Source: Candidatus Aenigmatarchaeota archaeon (GTDB taxonomy: Archaea; Aenigmatarchaeota; Aenigmatarchaeia; QMZP01; JAFGSV01). Taken from it: DNA of 29,333 nt. Positions 4,154-21,884 of this stretch are shown in pieces. Under the pieces are notes generated by a model. That model did not search any database, had not been told where the DNA came from, and worked only from the letters and a program-made list of their open reading frames with translations. The position numbers were made by a program, and so were the translations under genes. The stretch is taken from assembly GCA_020343635.1 (NCBI GenBank), contig CP070804.1, positions 591,009 through 620,341 on the forward strand. The letters are read 5' to 3'. The first letter of the stretch is position 1, and each line of letters opens with the position of its first letter.

Positions 4154-4948
4154 ATGTTAATCCATATGAGGTCGAATGCATCGGAAAAATTGATTATACC
4201 TGAATCTAGGCACAGAGGCCTCTATATTCCAGAGTCGGAGTTGTCTCTGCCGCTGATAGATAATCTGGGTGACTGGTTCAGTGATGGGAAGCCGGCATAC
4301 AGGCTCATCAGGGAATCTGCGCCGTTGGAAAGGAGACTCCTGCTTCAGTTGGCAAGGTTGGACCTTGAGCGTGGTACCCGACATGCAAAATTAGTTCCCG
4401 AGCATGTAAGAGAGGCCGTAAGGCAAGCCGGTATTTACGAACAGGAAATTAAGAAAGGCTATGCCGCATGCCACAGTGACGTAATCGAGTTTTTGCCAAG
4501 GGTGTATGCAACCGAAGGGATGTGGCAATTCAGTAACGAAAATCGTGACCCTGCAATGTACTACCAAGAAATAAAAGACCTTAAGGAAACAAATGATGGA
4601 TGGGAGAAAGTGCGTTCTGAATACACAATTGTAAACTTTACATTGGTGCCGGAAGGTGGTATAATAGTCCCTCGAAAAGATACCAAATTATGGTACTATC
4701 CCTGTGGAATCCCACTAGAGACAACCATAGACCGTGAAGAGGCAATCCAAGAATGGGTGGATGTAGGGCTTACAGAGGAACAGGCAGAAAGAGGGCTTTT
4801 TAAATTTCACAGGCCAGATGAAGTTTCAGGCTTGTATACGGTTATTTCGTCTTATGACAAAGAAGGTACGTTTCACATTAGCATATGCGGCAGACCCGAC
4901 AAAAAGGCCTTTGATGTCGGCTCGTATTCAATGAGAAGGGCTGCCTGA
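4154..4948 (+). CDS. Hypothetical protein, 264 aa (260 aa if started at ATG 4166)
   Basis: Long ORF filling the gap between divergent/tandem genes. TATA-like TTTATAAA at 4136-4143. No motif recognised; third positions look more A/T-rich than the flanks. Confidence 0.7.
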   Translation: MLIHMRSNASEKLIIPESRHRGLYIPESELSLPLIDNLGDWFSDGKPAYRLIRESAPLERRLLLQLARLDLERGTRHAKLVPEHVREAVRQAGIYEQEIKKGYAACHSDVIEFLPRVYATEGMWQFSNENRDPAMYYQEIKDLKETNDGWEKVRSEYTIVNFTLVPEGGIIVPRKDTKLWYYPCGIPLETTIDREEAIQEWVDVGLTEEQAERGLFKFHRPDEVSGLYTVISSYDKEGTFHISICGRPDKKAFDVGSYSMRRAA

Positions 4949-4982
4949 AACCTATAAATGATTCCTTGGAGAAATATATTTC

Positions 4983-6833
4983 ATGGGGACCGAGCTCAAG
5001 AAAGAACTGGGACTTATACACGTAGTAATGCTGTGCACCGGCGCCATAATGGGCACAGGGATATTCATCATACCCGGCGTTGCAGGTGGTCTGATGGGCC
5101 CCGGTTCCATAATACTGTGGGTGCTTATAGGGCTTCTCACAATTCCCATAAGCCTCTGCTTCATAGAGCTGGCGTCAAGCTACAACGTGACCGGAGGACC
5201 CTACGTCTACATAAGGGAGGCCATGGGCGATTTCTGGGGTTTCATAACGGGATGGACCGCCTGGCTCATGGCCTGCATATACATAGGCACGCACACCATA
5301 GCGATACGCTACTATCTCGACTTCTTCTATGAAATGACGTTCGTCGAAGCCGCGGTGCTCTATGCCGGGGTCATAGGAGTGATAACGCTCATAAATTACG
5401 CGGGTGTAAAGCAGGGAGGACGGACACAATTATTCTTAACTTTGGGCACGTTTTCCGTCCTAGCCATATTCATAATACTAGGACTTCCCAAGGTCGATAT
5501 GACTAACTTCGATCCGCTGTTCCCGCTGGGGCTTTCAGCGCTCGGTATGACGGCAGTACTCATAGTCGAGCCCTTCATAGGATGGGAGACTACAACCGTC
5601 ATAGCAGGCGAGGTCAAGGACACCAAGAGGAACATACCTCTGGGACTTGTGATATCCACGATAATCATAATGACATTCTATCTCCTTGTCGTGTTCGTCA
5701 CCCTCGGCGTGATGCCCTGGCAGCTGCTGAAGGATTCCATATCGCCCATGGCTGACGTGATGGCACTGGCCTACGGCAGCGGGATGGGGGCGATTATGAC
5801 GGCTGGGGCAATAATAGTAAGCCTTGCGTGCCTCAATGCCTGGATACTGACGACCGCGAGGCTTCCCTACGCGATGGCCAAGGACAAGCTGTTCCTGGGG
5901 TCTTTCGGCAACATAAACAGGAAGTACAACACGCCCTCGAGGTCACTCCTTGTGCAGGCCGTGATAGCATTCATAATAACGCTGACAGGATCGTACGAAG
6001 GCGCAGTCTTCCTGCTCATGGCCAATGCCCTCATATTATATGCACTGTCCGCGCTGTCCGTCATAAAGCTGAAGAAAAAGCCCGTGGACAGGCTGATAGA
6101 CCTTCCTGTGGCCGTGCCTATGATGGCGCTCCTATTATGCATAATACTCTTCACACAGATACCCTTCGAACTCATGATTTCCGGGCTCATGCTCATAGCA
6201 TTCGGCGTACCCATATACACTATGATAAGGGTCACCTACGACAGGAAGTTCCTGGAGAAGTTCTACAACACGTTCTCCCCCCTTTATGACATATTGTCGC
6301 CCATGTGGTACGGAAAAGGCAGGAGGGAGAAGGTGATACTGAAGGCGAACATAAAAAAGGGCGACATAGTCCTCGACTACGGATGCGCCACTGGAGCGGA
6401 CGTGCTCATGCTCGCTGACAAGGTAGGACGCGAAGGAAAGATAGTCGCGGTGGACATTTCCATAAAGCAGCTCGAGAGGAGCGTAGAGAAGGTCAAGAAA
6501 CTGCCCGGGCACCCGAACGTAGTCTTTGTCAAAGAAGACAGGGAGCTGGTGCCCTTTGAGTCAAGCACATTCGACAGGATAATATCCGTCGGTGTCCTTT
6601 CATATCAGCCCGATCCGGGGAAGCTGCTGCATGAGTTCAGGAGGGTGCTGAGAAAGGGAGGCCGGGTGAGCATTATGGACTTCGGCAGGGCGCTTTTCAT
6701 ACCGAAGGCCAAGTACCTGAAGTCCCGTGAAAGCATAAAGAAGACATTTAATAGCGCGGGATTCAAAAAAATAAACATAGAAAAAACGAGCAGCATTTCT
6801 GCCGAGTACTACTACATAACAGCGGTGAAGTAG
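4983..6833 (+). CDS. APC-family amino acid permease fused to a C-terminal class I SAM-dependent methyltransferase domain
   Basis: TM1 'GAIMGTGIFIIPG', 'ELASSY...GGPYVYI.EAMG', 'GWETT..IAGEVKD.KRNIP', about 12 hydrophobic segments. Then motif I VLDYGCATG, 'VAVDIS' and 'PFESSTFDRII...LHEFRRVLRKGG'. Confidence 0.9.
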   Translation: MGTELKKELGLIHVVMLCTGAIMGTGIFIIPGVAGGLMGPGSIILWVLIGLLTIPISLCFIELASSYNVTGGPYVYIREAMGDFWGFITGWTAWLMACIYIGTHTIAIRYYLDFFYEMTFVEAAVLYAGVIGVITLINYAGVKQGGRTQLFLTLGTFSVLAIFIILGLPKVDMTNFDPLFPLGLSALGMTAVLIVEPFIGWETTTVIAGEVKDTKRNIPLGLVISTIIIMTFYLLVVFVTLGVMPWQLLKDSISPMADVMALAYGSGMGAIMTAGAIIVSLACLNAWILTTARLPYAMAKDKLFLGSFGNINRKYNTPSRSLLVQAVIAFIITLTGSYEGAVFLLMANALILYALSALSVIKLKKKPVDRLIDLPVAVPMMALLLCIILFTQIPFELMISGLMLIAFGVPIYTMIRVTYDRKFLEKFYNTFSPLYDILSPMWYGKGRREKVILKANIKKGDIVLDYGCATGADVLMLADKVGREGKIVAVDISIKQLERSVEKVKKLPGHPNVVFVKEDRELVPFESSTFDRIISVGVLSYQPDPGKLLHEFRRVLRKGGRVSIMDFGRALFIPKAKYLKSRESIKKTFNSAGFKKINIEKTSSISAEYYYITAVK

Positions 6834-6834
6834 C

Positions 6835-7332
6835 ATGAAAGTGAAAGACGTGATGAGCACGAAACTGATAACATTCAAGCCTGAGGATACGCTACACGAG
6901 GCTCTGCAGGTTTTCACCAGCAAGGGGATTTCCGGGGCCCCGGTCGTAAAGGACGGGAAGCTTGCGGGGCTCATAACAGAGCTCGACGTGATAAAGGTCA
7001 TAGACATATACACCCCCAAGGTGCATTTCACATCAATGCCGCATTTCTTCCTTGTGCTTGCGGGACTGAAGAGCAGAAAGAAGGCGACGGAGCTCAAGAA
7101 GAAGATAATGGCCGCCTCAAAACTGCAAATCCAGGATTTCATGACCCAGGATCCCGTCACCATAGAAGAGGACGTGGATATAATGGAAGCCGCCAGAATC
7201 ATAGACACCTATAAAGTCAACAGGATACCTGTGGTGGAGAAGGGAAAGGTCAGGGGAATCGTAACCAGAAACGACATAATAAAGGCCGTGGCCAGGCTGG
7301 ACACCATGCTTACAGAGCGAAGAAAGAAATAA
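6835..7332 (+). CDS. CBS-pair (Bateman) protein with a central insertion
   Basis: 'VKDVMS....ISGAPVV..GKL.GLITELD' and 'IQDFMT.DPVTI....VNRIPVV..GKVRGIVTRNDII'; starts 1 nt after the permease stop. Confidence 0.9.
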   Translation: MKVKDVMSTKLITFKPEDTLHEALQVFTSKGISGAPVVKDGKLAGLITELDVIKVIDIYTPKVHFTSMPHFFLVLAGLKSRKKATELKKKIMAASKLQIQDFMTQDPVTIEEDVDIMEAARIIDTYKVNRIPVVEKGKVRGIVTRNDIIKAVARLDTMLTERRKK

Positions 7333-7359: not shown

Positions 7360-8799
7360 ATGCAAAGCGAAGTATGGCAGGATCCTGAACTCGATCAGGT
7401 TTTCATGATAGATGCAGAGATCATTGACAAGATAGTAGAATCCGCTGACCTGAAGAAGAGTGAGACGGTCCTTGAGATAGGAACAGGGCCCGGAAATCTC
7501 ACGGGGGCATTGGCGAAGAAGTGTAAAAAGGTTATAACCATAGAGATCGATGAGAGGCTGAAGCCGGGCCTCAAAAAGACGTTTGACAAAATCGGTAACG
7601 TTGAGATAGTCTGGGGAAATGCGTTGGACGTTCTCGAAAAGGGAAAGATCAGATTCGACAAGATAGTGGCAAATCCGCCTTACTCCATAAGCGAGGCCCT
7701 GATAAAGGCTCTGTTCGGGGTCAGGTTCGAGGCGGCGGTGCTCACCCTCCCGTGGCGGTTCGTTGAGAGGCTTACATCCAACCCTGAAGAGGAGGACTAT
7801 TCGAAGCTCTCGATGTTTGCCCAGTCATTCTTCAGTATAGAGACCATCCTGAAGGTGAACAAAGAGGCATGGCACCCAAGACCGGATACCATGAGCATGG
7901 TTGTCAGGATCAGGCCCAGGAAGCCGGGCCCCGACGATGTTTTCCTGAGGGAGATCGCCCTTCAGGATGACAAGAAGCTGAAGAACGCTCTGAGAGAAGC
8001 CATCATAAAAAGAAAAGGCAAGACCAAAAGGACGGCAAAGGATGAAATAGATGATATCGATTTACCCAAGAAACTGCTTGACAAGAAGATAAGCCAGATG
8101 TCTTTACTGGAGATAAAGCTGGTGCTTGCCAAGCTCGGAAAGAGGAAATACAGGCTTGTCTGCTTCGACCTTGACGGCACACTTCTTGACGAAATGAAAT
8201 ACATATGGACACTGATCCATGACGAACTGCATACGGACAGAGGCAAGAGGAACGAATACATGGAGAAGTACTACAGAGGCGATATCAGCTACAAGCAATG
8301 GGCCGAGATCGACATAAAGCTTTTCGTAGATAAGAAGACTAGCAGAGAAGACATCATCGGGCTCATGAAAAATATCAAGCTGATGAAAGGTCCAAGGGAG
8401 ACGCTGCTTGAGCTCAGGAAAAGGGGCTACGTGCTTGCCATCATATCCGGAGGACTGGATCTCGTGCTGTACCACTTCTTACCGGATGCGCACGAGCTGT
8501 TCGATCATATAATCATAAACAGGCTGCTTTTCGACGAGGACGGAAAGCTCAGTGGAGCCGAGATTCCGCAAGACTTCGGGAAGTCTGGGAACAAGGCCGA
8601 CTCTCTTAAGAGACTCGCTGAGAAGGAAAGCATAAGCATGGATGAATGCGTCTTCATAGGGGATTCTGATAACGACGTTGAAGTGATGGAAGTGGCGGGT
8701 TTTACCATAGGTTTCAATCCCACGGACAAGATAGCGAAAGTCAGTGACGTTATAATAAGGAAAAAGGACCTCAGGGAAGTTCTTGATCATCTCACTTAG
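7360..8799 (+). CDS. ksgA: KsgA/RsmA (Dim1) rRNA adenine dimethylase fused to a SerB-like HAD-superfamily phosphatase
   Basis: N-terminal 'DQVFMID..VLEIGTGPGNLT..IEID..IVANPPY'. C-terminal HAD motifs: FDLDGT (I), ISGG (II), K in 'GNKAD' (III), GDSDND (IV). One uninterrupted 479-aa frame. Confidence 0.85.
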   Translation: MQSEVWQDPELDQVFMIDAEIIDKIVESADLKKSETVLEIGTGPGNLTGALAKKCKKVITIEIDERLKPGLKKTFDKIGNVEIVWGNALDVLEKGKIRFDKIVANPPYSISEALIKALFGVRFEAAVLTLPWRFVERLTSNPEEEDYSKLSMFAQSFFSIETILKVNKEAWHPRPDTMSMVVRIRPRKPGPDDVFLREIALQDDKKLKNALREAIIKRKGKTKRTAKDEIDDIDLPKKLLDKKISQMSLLEIKLVLAKLGKRKYRLVCFDLDGTLLDEMKYIWTLIHDELHTDRGKRNEYMEKYYRGDISYKQWAEIDIKLFVDKKTSREDIIGLMKNIKLMKGPRETLLELRKRGYVLAIISGGLDLVLYHFLPDAHELFDHIIINRLLFDEDGKLSGAEIPQDFGKSGNKADSLKRLAEKESISMDECVFIGDSDNDVEVMEVAGFTIGFNPTDKIAKVSDVIIRKKDLREVLDHLT

Positions 8800-21772: not shown

Positions 21773-21884
21773 GGGCCTGTAGCTCAGTCTGTTCAGAGCA
21801 CCCGGCTCTTAACCAAGCTTTCAGAAAAAGCTTGAGCAAAAGGGAGCAACCGGGGCGTCGCGGGTTCGAATCCCTCCAGGCCCA
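21773..21884 (+). tRNA. tRNA-Lys(CUU) with an intron at position 37/38; CCA not encoded
   Basis: Acceptor GGGCCTG/CAGGCCC, D stem GCTC/GAGC, anticodon stem CCCGG/CCGGG, anticodon CTT at 21808-21810, T loop TTCGAAT, discriminator A at 21884. Confidence 0.92.
21812..21848 (+). other. 37-nt tRNA intron with a relaxed bulge-helix-bulge motif
   Basis: Central helix CUCU/GGAG, 3-nt bulges UA^A and CA^A, internal hairpin CAAGCTTT/AAAGCTTG. Confidence 0.85.

What the first reader, a model, noticed from the sequence alone, without database searches (positions are those of the whole stretch)
4983..7332. APC transporter fused to a SAM methyltransferase domain and coupled to a CBS-pair protein
Seen: one uninterrupted frame joins a 12-TM APC permease to a complete class I MTase domain (motif I DYGCATG, acidic VDIS, UbiE-like 'FY..FSPLYD' lead-in). 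The CBS gene starts 1 nt after the stop. Established: CBS pairs bind adenosyl ligands (AMP/ATP, in some cases SAM/MTA), and APC carriers are often regulated by cytosolic C-terminal domains. Inference: an importer gated by SAM/adenylate status, or one that methylates its cargo or a partner on entry. I know no characterised example of this architecture.
Basis: partly seen in the sequence, partly recalled or inferred. Interest (0 to 1): 0.62.

Follow-up and report, generated by a model that had tools for sequence, protein, structure and literature searches.

The report
DPANN permease–methyltransferase fusion with CBS partner
A tiny symbiotic (DPANN) archaeon encodes an amino-acid-type membrane carrier permanently joined to an intact SAM-binding methyltransferase domain and followed by its own small CBS sensor gene; the arrangement is real, conserved and uncharacterised, and what it carries, senses or methylates is still open.

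Summary
ORF 4983-6833 (616 aa) joins an AA_permease_2 carrier (residues 9-395) to a class I methyltransferase fold (457-616). A CBS-pair gene starts 1 nt after its stop.

The fusion is not an accident. It is uninterrupted in 42 of 201 Aenigmatarchaeota genomes, down to about 32% identity, and it also occurs in Woesearchaeota. No convincing split form was found. All three parts are under purifying selection, and SAM motif I and the strand-2 aspartate are conserved.

The CBS gene abuts the fusion in 22 of those 42 genomes, in both deep clades of the fusion tree. Its sister clade, found in genomes without the fusion, sits behind methionyl-tRNA synthetase.

The genome has MetK and SAH hydrolase. 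No methionine synthase was found in its single 742-kb contig.

Best reading (about 0.4): a specialised importer whose cytoplasmic face is tuned by methyl-cycle status through the SAM-binding tail and the CBS protein. Cargo or lipid methylation (about 0.3) is not excluded.

I found no paper describing this. The scan noted the same architecture earlier on other genomes (e1-712549 and others).

The parts
4952..4959 (+). TATA-box-like element (CTATAAAT), ending 24 nt before the ATG; candidate own promoter for a nearly leaderless fusion-CBS transcript
   Evidence: Read directly from the sequence. Inference only: the promoter scan tool does not cover archaeal promoters.
4983..6833 (+). Whole fusion gene, 616 aa (P0001): APC carrier plus class I methyltransferase fold
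4983..6224 (+). Carrier domain, residues 1-414. It has the LeuT/APC fold and the TM1 motif GAIMGTGIF. Subfamily-specific residues are E196, W201-E202 and W287.
   Evidence: Pfam PF13520 at 169 bits. phmmer to xCT, GkApcT, BasC and AdiC. Foldseek target-normalised TM-scores 0.78-0.87. Motif comparison with plain relatives.
6225..6350 (+). Linker and lid, residues 415-456: two helices after TM12 with the conserved D420-x2-F423 and WYG, UbiE-like
   Evidence: Ubie_methyltran match from residue 422. Helices 421-430 and 432-454 in the model. Conservation in alignment A1.
6351..6830 (+). Methyltransferase core, residues 457-616. Motif I is at 6369-6395 (VLDYGCATG). The strand-2 acidic residue D491 is at 6453-6455.
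   Evidence: Pfam. L464, G467 and D491 are invariant; D465, G471, S493, F530, D531 and P545 are conserved in at least 90% of 39 family members. Domain model pLDDT 89; Foldseek hits to 3dh0, RebM, PMT, ArsM, UbiG, Coq5 and PmtA with TM 0.6-0.74.
6835..7332 (+). CBS-pair protein, 165 aa (P0002), probably translationally coupled to the fusion
   Evidence: Directly downstream of the fusion in 22 of 42 fusion-bearing genomes.
7003..7119 (+). Insert of about 39 aa between CBS1 and CBS2, with the signature TPK(V/I)HF...LAGLKSR. P61, K62, F71 and K79 are invariant among the 12 aligned fusion-linked copies.
   Evidence: Alignment A2. The signature is not kept in the MetRS-linked sister clade (A4).

Best explanation
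This is a specialised amino-acid-type carrier of DPANN archaea, belonging to the APC superfamily and resembling SLC7 carriers and AdiC. Its cytoplasmic C-terminus has been replaced by an intact SAM/SAH-binding methyltransferase fold. In many lineages it works with a dedicated CBS-pair protein made from the same transcript.

Most likely the carrier imports a methionine-related or cationic amino-acid-type substrate that the cell cannot make. The tail reports methyl-cycle status (SAM or SAH occupancy) to the carrier's inner face, and the CBS pair adds a second adenosyl-ligand input.

Shown: the architecture, its conservation, the conserved SAM-site residues, the gene linkage, and the methionine and SAM gene complement found in the 742-kb contig. 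Inferred: ligand binding, the gating itself, and the substrate.
For: 1. The C-terminal slot is a regulatory slot in the nearest relatives. The next-best homologues of the carrier carry PTS_EIIA_2, TrkA_C or Usp domains there. Solved APC-superfamily carriers with cytosolic C-terminal domains (KimA with c-di-AMP, NKCC1, NCC) appear in the fold search.
2. The SAM-site residues are conserved over 39 members at 29-86% identity. dN/dS of the domain is 0.07-0.2.
3. No conserved residues beyond the generic SAM-binding and fold motifs point to a substrate. The structural neighbours are an unspecific mix.
4. A few members keep the domain but have an eroded motif I (P0146, P0185, P0132). A sensor or scaffold tolerates this better than an enzyme does.
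5. The CBS gene lies 2-31 nt downstream in 18 of 29 fetched loci, and in 22 of 42 fusion-bearing genomes overall, in both deep clades of the fusion tree.
6. The CBS copies of fusion-bearing genomes form one side of a 100/98 split. The other side, from genomes without the fusion, sits directly behind methionyl-tRNA synthetase in three families. This gives a methionine theme.
7. The window's genome has MetK and SAH hydrolase, but no MetE or MetH was found. Methionine must therefore be imported to make SAM.
8. 39 of 42 fusion-bearing genomes also have a plain APC carrier, so the fused one looks specialised.
9. There is a precedent for a class I methyltransferase fold used purely as a SAM sensor: SAMTOR (PMC10883374). 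SAM-binding CBS pairs are also known (human CBS enzyme, PMC4276868, listed but not opened; that it binds SAM is from its abstract and my own knowledge).
Against: No methyltransferase-fold regulator of a transporter is known. The domain keeps a UbiE-like lid and loops that in enzymes line the substrate cleft, and its nearest structures are active small-molecule methyltransferases.

13 of 42 fusion-bearing genomes have no detectable SAM synthetase of either type, so 'SAM made from imported methionine' cannot be the whole story.

The CBS partner is missing from half of the loci and from the Woesearchaeota-type loci. The MetRS link is guilt by association in small genomes with conserved synteny.
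Confidence: 0.4

Rival explanations
1. The tail is an active methyltransferase held at the membrane by the carrier. It methylates the incoming cargo as it leaves the carrier (vectorial methylation), or a membrane lipid head group, or a partner protein such as the CBS protein.
For: Motif I, D491 and the beta-4 FD motif are intact and under purifying selection. The lead-in is UbiE-like. The nearest folds are small-molecule and lipid enzymes: RebM, phosphoethanolamine N-methyltransferases, ArsM, UbiG, Coq5 and bacterial phosphatidylethanolamine N-methyltransferase, with TM about 0.6-0.74. One singleton protein (P0124) keeps only TM12 plus the domain behind a zinc-ribbon-like N-terminus, which would mean the domain can act without the carrier.
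Against: No acceptor-specific residues were recognised. The NCBIfam equivalog cut-offs for UbiE/MenG and ArsM are missed by a wide margin. No cysteine is conserved outside motif I, so an ArsM-like cysteine set is lacking. No pathway genes recur nearby. Motif I is eroded in some members. P0124 is a single sequence on a 1.8-kb contig and may be a chimera.
Confidence: 0.3
2. The protein is a SAM importer, or a SAM/SAH exchanger, and the tail captures or releases the ligand at the inner face.
For: 13 of 42 fusion-bearing genomes lack both kinds of SAM synthetase, although they must use SAM. These include whole families f17 and f29 and most of f20. Fungal SAM permeases (Candida Gap4) belong to the amino-acid permease family (PMC5177730, title seen). 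The carrier has extra acidic and aromatic residues at positions that line the AdiC substrate path (E196, E202, W287), which would suit a cationic substrate.
Against: This genome and 28 other fusion-bearing genomes do have MetK. The share without MetK is about the same with the fusion (13/42) as without it (40/159). The roles of the AdiC residues are recalled from memory, not tested here.
Confidence: 0.12
3. The fusion is a chance or decaying gene fusion with no joint function, and the CBS adjacency is mere synteny.
For: DPANN genomes hold many odd fusions; the next gene, KsgA-HAD, is fused only in this genome and one congener. CBS genes are common here: 20 CBS domain matches in about ten reading frames within the 742-kb contig.
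Against: The fusion is kept open in 42 genomes of 11 families and in a second phylum. dN/dS is well below 1 in each part. No split forms were found. The CBS adjacency is kept across fusion clades that share only about 35% identity.
Confidence: 0.03

Closest known systems
Prokaryotic APC / SLC7-type carriers with solved structures (GkApcT 5OQT/6F34, BasC 6F2G, AdiC 3L1L/5J4N, ApcT 3GIA; human xCT, LAT1, y+LAT1)
   Same: Same 12-TM LeuT-type fold, with target-normalised TM-scores of 0.74-0.87. Same TM1 motif G(S/T)G-I-F and TM6 G-W/F-E/D motif. The TM6-TM8 segment aligns without gaps to AdiC, so that E202 falls on AdiC E208 and W287 on AdiC W293.
   Different: None of them has a methyltransferase tail. 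The TM5 lysine of GkApcT (K191), also a lysine at the aligned position in BasC and xCT, is Thr155 here and Thr or Ser in most of the family. E196 is specific to the fused subfamily. The substrate is unknown.
APC-superfamily carriers with cytosolic C-terminal regulatory domains: KimA (c-di-AMP bound, 8B70), cation-chloride cotransporters (NKCC1, NCC), and uncharacterised APC-PTS_EIIA_2 / TrkA_C / Usp fusions
   Same: The logic matches: a LeuT-fold carrier followed by a soluble ligand- or signal-binding domain on the inner face.
   Different: The appended domain here is a class I SAM methyltransferase fold, which I did not find described for any carrier. In addition, a separate CBS protein is encoded with it.
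SAMTOR, the SAM sensor of the mTORC1 pathway
   Same: A class I methyltransferase fold that binds SAM and SAH and signals by changing protein contacts. The paper reports no catalysis (PMC10883374).
   Different: SAMTOR is eukaryotic and soluble, and acts on GATOR1-KICSTOR. Its GxGxG is altered to GSCF/YN, whereas the motif here is near-canonical. No sequence relationship was tested or claimed.
CBS-domain regulation of transporters and enzymes (MgtE, ClC, OpuA, CNNM/CorC; SAM-binding CBS pairs of cystathionine beta-synthase and MJ0100)
   Same: A CBS pair with two G-h-h-T-x-x-D ribose-binding motifs: G45-D51, and G141-D147 with R145 in at least 90% of the family. CBS2 matches MJ0100 at 57 bits.
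   Different: Here the CBS pair is a separate 165-aa protein with a conserved insert of about 39 aa between the two domains. Its ligand and its contact with the carrier are untested.
Small class I methyltransferases of the Methyltransf_11/25/31 and UbiE/Coq5 type (3DH0, RebM 3BUS, PH0226 1VE3, UbiG, PmtA 8YS9, ArsM)
   Same: Same fold, same size, and the same motif I / post-I / beta-4 FD motifs.
   Different: Identity is only 18-26%. The equivalog cut-offs are missed. No conserved cysteine set like that of ArsM is present. The domain is tethered to TM12 of a carrier.

Membership tests
APC superfamily, AA_permease_2 (PF13520) | Profile score above the curated cut-off | tested here: met
   169.1 bits against 27; PF00324 154 bits against 24.6.
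APC superfamily, AA_permease_2 (PF13520) | 12-TM LeuT-type fold | tested here: met
   Model pLDDT 88.6. Foldseek to GkApcT, BasC, AdiC and LAT1 gives target-normalised TM-scores 0.78-0.87 over about 430 columns.
APC superfamily, AA_permease_2 (PF13520) | Unwound TM1 G-(S/T)-G motif and TM6 aromatic-G-aromatic-acidic motif that hold the alpha-carboxylate and alpha-amino groups | tested here: met
   GAIMGTGIF and FIGWE; identical or near-identical to GkApcT. The role of these motifs is from established structural work, recalled from memory.
TIGR00909 (2A0306, archaeal/bacterial amino-acid transporter subfamily) | Score above NCBIfam's curated cut-off | tested here: not met
   247.3 bits against 556.8. 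It is the best-scoring subfamily model, but this protein is not a member by the curated rule.
Class I SAM-dependent methyltransferase fold (Methyltransf_31/25/11) | Profile scores above the cut-offs | tested here: met
   77.6, 66.3 and 61.8 bits against 27, 27 and 21.2.
Class I SAM-dependent methyltransferase fold (Methyltransf_31/25/11) | Glycine-rich motif I after strand 1, and an acidic residue at the end of strand 2 | tested here: met
   VLDYGCATG: G467 is invariant and G471 is conserved in at least 90%. The middle Gly is Ala in this clade and Gly in most others. D491 is invariant. A few distant members are eroded.
Class I SAM-dependent methyltransferase fold (Methyltransf_31/25/11) | Seven-stranded sheet flanked by helices | tested here: met
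   The domain model (pLDDT 89, pTM 0.88) has seven strands. Foldseek probability is 1.00 to many class I enzymes.
Class I SAM-dependent methyltransferase fold (Methyltransf_31/25/11) | Binds SAM and transfers a methyl group | not testable with these tools
   Needs binding and turnover assays.
UbiE/MenG quinone C-methyltransferases | Equivalog-level score | tested here: not met
   60-61 bits against cut-offs of 216-235 (NF001243/NF001244) and 57 against 420 (TIGR02752). Only the generic Pfam PF01209 model passes: 63 against 20.1.
ArsM arsenite methyltransferase | Subfamily score and the conserved As(III)-binding cysteines | tested here: not met
   82.7 bits against 263. The only recurrent Cys is in motif I, and it is replaced by S or A in several members. 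That ArsM needs a conserved cysteine set is from memory.
CBS pair (Bateman module, PF00571 x2) | Two CBS domains above the cut-off, with ribose-binding G-h-h-T-x-x-D motifs | tested here: met
   111.7 bits, two stretches. GLITELD and GIVTRND are conserved.
SAMTOR-like non-catalytic SAM sensors | SAM/SAH binding changes partner contacts, and there is no methyl transfer | not testable with these tools
   Functional analogy only (PMC10883374). No membership is claimed.

The most novel reading that the evidence does not exclude
The tail is catalytically active and methylates the cargo as it emerges from the carrier. This would be 'group translocation by methylation': uptake becomes irreversible, or a methylated product (for example a compatible solute or a lipid head-group precursor) is made in one step, under the control of the CBS protein.
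Probability: 0.15. Interest if true: 0.85.

Novelty: new variant of a known kind. Interest (0 to 1): 0.55.

Why it matters
DPANN archaea cannot make amino acids. A published survey of Aenigmarchaeota found a single uncharacterised amino-acid transporter family, arCOG00009 (PMC8407114). How these cells control uptake is therefore central to their dependence on hosts.

A carrier hard-wired to a SAM-binding fold would be the first case of methyl-cycle status acting directly on a transporter. If the domain is an enzyme, it would be the first case of methylation coupled to import.

The family is compact (616 aa plus a 165-aa partner), models confidently and has clear mutational targets (G467, D491, E196, W287, and the TPK(V/I)HF insert). 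The question is therefore directly testable in proteoliposomes.

Tried and rejected
I took neighbourhoods from genome-search loci and the fetch from genomes instead.
- The search for related loci with a seven-sequence alignment of the Woesearchaeota-type clade failed, because no stretch was conserved enough. A single-protein scan gave three usable loci, none with a CBS neighbour.
- Split-gene test: the closest hits to the tail are all fused. All five short hits lie on contigs of 0.5-1.8 kb. P0137, P0132, P0133 and P0152 begin inside the carrier, so they are truncated gene calls.
- UbiE/MenG and ArsM membership was rejected on the curated cut-offs and the lack of conserved cysteines.
- 'SAM importer for cells without SAM synthetase': the share without MetK of either type is about the same with the fusion (13/42) as without it (40/159). 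Related genomes are not independent, so I ran no statistical test.
- Congruence of the fusion and CBS trees as evidence of co-transfer failed. The family f1 CBS groups with f14 (98/94), whereas the f1 fusion groups with f20, f16 and f29. The fusion tree is only the quick version.
- The TM5 lysine as a discriminator was dropped. It is also missing from the EIIA-fused relatives and from the plain paralogues.
- Conserved neighbours other than the CBS gene are housekeeping genes or cation exchangers: Na_Ca_ex upstream in six loci, and Na_H_Exchanger in one Woesearchaeota-type locus. They give no pathway clue.
- Literature searches for the architecture found nothing.
Full report
**Observation**

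The window comes from a single 742-kb contig of an Aenigmatarchaeota (DPANN) archaeon. Close homologues are named so by their sources. An intron-bearing tRNA at 21773-21884 fits an archaeon.

ORF 4983-6833 (+) encodes 616 aa. Pfam places AA_permease_2 on residues 9-395 and several class I methyltransferase models on residues 422-576, all above their cut-offs. The CBS-pair gene 6835-7332 starts one base after the TAG.

A TATA-like CTATAAAT ends 24 nt before the ATG, and a T-rich stretch follows the CBS gene. I infer a two-gene transcript; this was not shown.

**Is the fusion real and selected?**

A search of 5.8 billion proteins found about 38 clusters with the same architecture, at 29-86% identity. 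In 201 genomes of the phylum, 42 hold a match covering both parts with no internal stop. Two of these matches are cut by a contig end. They fall in families f1 (8/8), f11, f13, f14, f16, f17, f18, f20, f23, f29 and f31. None was found in the sister families f2-f4 of the same order, which have only plain carriers.

More distant members belong to Woesearchaeota, and Atlas clusters agree.

With the tail alone as query against 1.8 billion representatives, the best hits are all fused. The only short hits lie on contigs of 0.5-1.8 kb, or start inside the carrier.

Within the genus, dN/dS is about 0.04-0.13 for the carrier, 0.07-0.2 for the tail and 0.06-0.14 for the CBS gene. dS is saturated, so these values are rough.

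**The carrier**

It aligns end to end with xCT, GkApcT, BasC, AdiC and ApcT. The model (pLDDT 88.6, pTM 0.83) superposes on them. The TM1 motif GAIMGTGIF is nearly that of GkApcT.

The subfamily has its own marks:
- E196 is present in every fused member compared and in none of the plain relatives.
- G-W-E occupies TM6.
- W287 in TM8 is conserved in the Aenigmatarchaeota members compared.

The TM6-TM8 stretch aligns without gaps to AdiC. This puts E202 on AdiC E208 and W287 on AdiC W293. From memory, W293 stacks on the guanidinium group of arginine in AdiC, so a cationic group on the substrate is a lead, not a result.

The TM5 lysine of GkApcT, BasC and xCT is Thr155 here, but that lysine is also absent from other relatives.

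39 of the 42 fusion-bearing genomes have at least one further, plain APC carrier. In this contig the fused gene is the only AA_permease_2 match. The genome's marker-gene completeness is 72%.

**The tail**

The domain model (pLDDT 89) is a seven-stranded class I fold. Its Foldseek neighbours are a mix: 3DH0, RebM, SpnF, phosphoethanolamine N-methyltransferases, ArsM, UbiG, Coq5 and PmtA, at 15-26% identity.

- L464, G467 and D491 are invariant.
- D465, G471, S493, F530, D531 and P545 are conserved in at least 90% of members.
- D420, F423 (both at least 90%) and the WYG motif in the lead-in helices are also conserved.

These are the generic SAM-site and fold residues; I could not find an acceptor signature. 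The UbiE/MenG and ArsM equivalog cut-offs are missed by a wide margin. A few distant members have an eroded motif I.

One singleton protein, P0124, joins a zinc-ribbon-like N-terminus to TM12 plus the tail. It sits on a 1.8-kb contig and has no counterpart in 14 genomes of the family.

**The CBS partner**

The gene lies 2-31 nt downstream of the fusion in 18 of 29 fetched loci. By coordinates, it is adjacent in 22 of the 42 fusion-bearing genomes: f1 ×8, f14 ×4, f20 ×5, f16 ×4 and f23 ×1.

The adjacent copies share an insert of about 39 aa between the two CBS domains, with invariant P61, K62, F71 and K79.

The orthologue group is wider than the fusion. 91 of 201 genomes have a full-length match, including 37 of 42 in family f12, which has no fusion.

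In seven of twelve loci fetched from genomes where the gene is not next to a fusion, it lies just behind methionyl-tRNA synthetase, usually with that enzyme's split tRNA-binding domain. These loci come from f12, f10 and f2.

In the tree, these MetRS-linked copies form one side of a 100/98 split. All copies from fusion-bearing genomes form the other side, including the unlinked ones of f13 and f31. The f1 copies are sister to f14 (98/94), not to f2 of their own order.

The quick fusion tree has two deep clades, and the CBS adjacency occurs in both. It places f1 with f20, f16 and f29. The linkage is therefore old or repeatedly kept, but simple co-transfer is not shown.

The three Woesearchaeota-type loci have no CBS neighbour.

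**Metabolic setting**

The contig encodes a bacterial-type MetK and SAH hydrolase. No archaeal-type MetK, MetE or MetH was found. Aenigmarchaeota are reported to lack amino-acid synthesis and to have one uncharacterised amino-acid transporter family (PMC8407114). Methionine must therefore be taken up to make SAM.

Across the sample, 25 fusion-bearing genomes have bacterial-type MetK, 4 have the archaeal type and 13 have neither. That is about the same share as among genomes without the fusion.

**Reading**

The position of the tail matches where relatives carry PTS_EIIA_2, TrkA_C or Usp domains, and where KimA and the cation-chloride cotransporters carry regulatory domains.

These points lead me to favour a regulatory role, at about 0.4:
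- the conserved SAM site;
- the lack of an acceptor signature;
- the dedicated CBS partner;
- the methionine-linked sister clade of that partner;
- the precedent of SAMTOR.

An active enzyme (about 0.3) and a SAM carrier (about 0.12) stay open. None of these can be settled without binding, turnover and transport assays.

**Novelty**

I found no paper on this architecture. The scan had noted it before on other genomes (e1-712549, e1-5237119, e1-4810747, e1-5774688).

- the count across 201 genomes;
- the alternative MetRS context and the two-clade structure of the CBS partner;
- the MetK cross-tabulation;
- the subfamily-specific carrier residues.

Noticed in passing
window 7360-8799 (+): The next gene fuses KsgA/RsmA (residues 11-213) to an archaeal PSP-like HAD-IB phosphatase (residues 262-461). 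In six of the seven other family loci fetched, the two parts are separate genes in different frames. Only this genome and G054 (locus L002) show one continuous frame.
   Followed up: partly
window 4154-4948 (+): A 264-aa ORF directly upstream of the fusion has no Pfam or NCBIfam match. It lies in a low-GC kilobase (0.43 against about 0.51 in the flanks) and has no tblastn match in the equivalent loci of seven relatives. It may be a recent insertion.
   Followed up: partly
window 21773-21884 (+): Rfam finds a 112-nt tRNA (49.7 bits) that ARAGORN misses. The length implies an intron, as is usual in archaea.
   Followed up: no
G000 contig, 703421-703753 (-) and 704422-705198 (+), outside the window: Another CBS-pair gene lies just upstream of the bacterial-type MetK gene on the opposite strand. 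This is a second CBS gene next to a methionine/SAM gene in the same genome.
   Followed up: no
L009, L010, L015, L025, L027, L028 (upstream of the fusion); L047:4642-5886: A Na+/Ca2+-exchanger-family gene (PF01699) ends at or overlaps the start of the fusion gene in six loci from three families. A Na+/H+ exchanger sits in the same place in one Woesearchaeota-type locus. This may hint at the coupling ion.
   Followed up: partly
phylum sample, (for example G015:C5:102514-104283, G123:C3:160115-161878): SAM synthetase type switches between families: bacterial type in f1-f4, f13 and f14; archaeal type in f7, f10, f15 and f27; both types occur in f12. Five genomes have a bacterial-type MetK split across an open frame of about 840 aa, which looks like an intein. 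About a quarter of the genomes show neither type.
   Followed up: no
P0124 (ENA, 1835-bp contig): This protein has a zinc-ribbon-like N-terminus (two CxxC pairs), one TM helix homologous to TM12, and a tail 69% identical to this one. It is either a carrier-less membrane-anchored form or an assembly chimera.
   Followed up: partly
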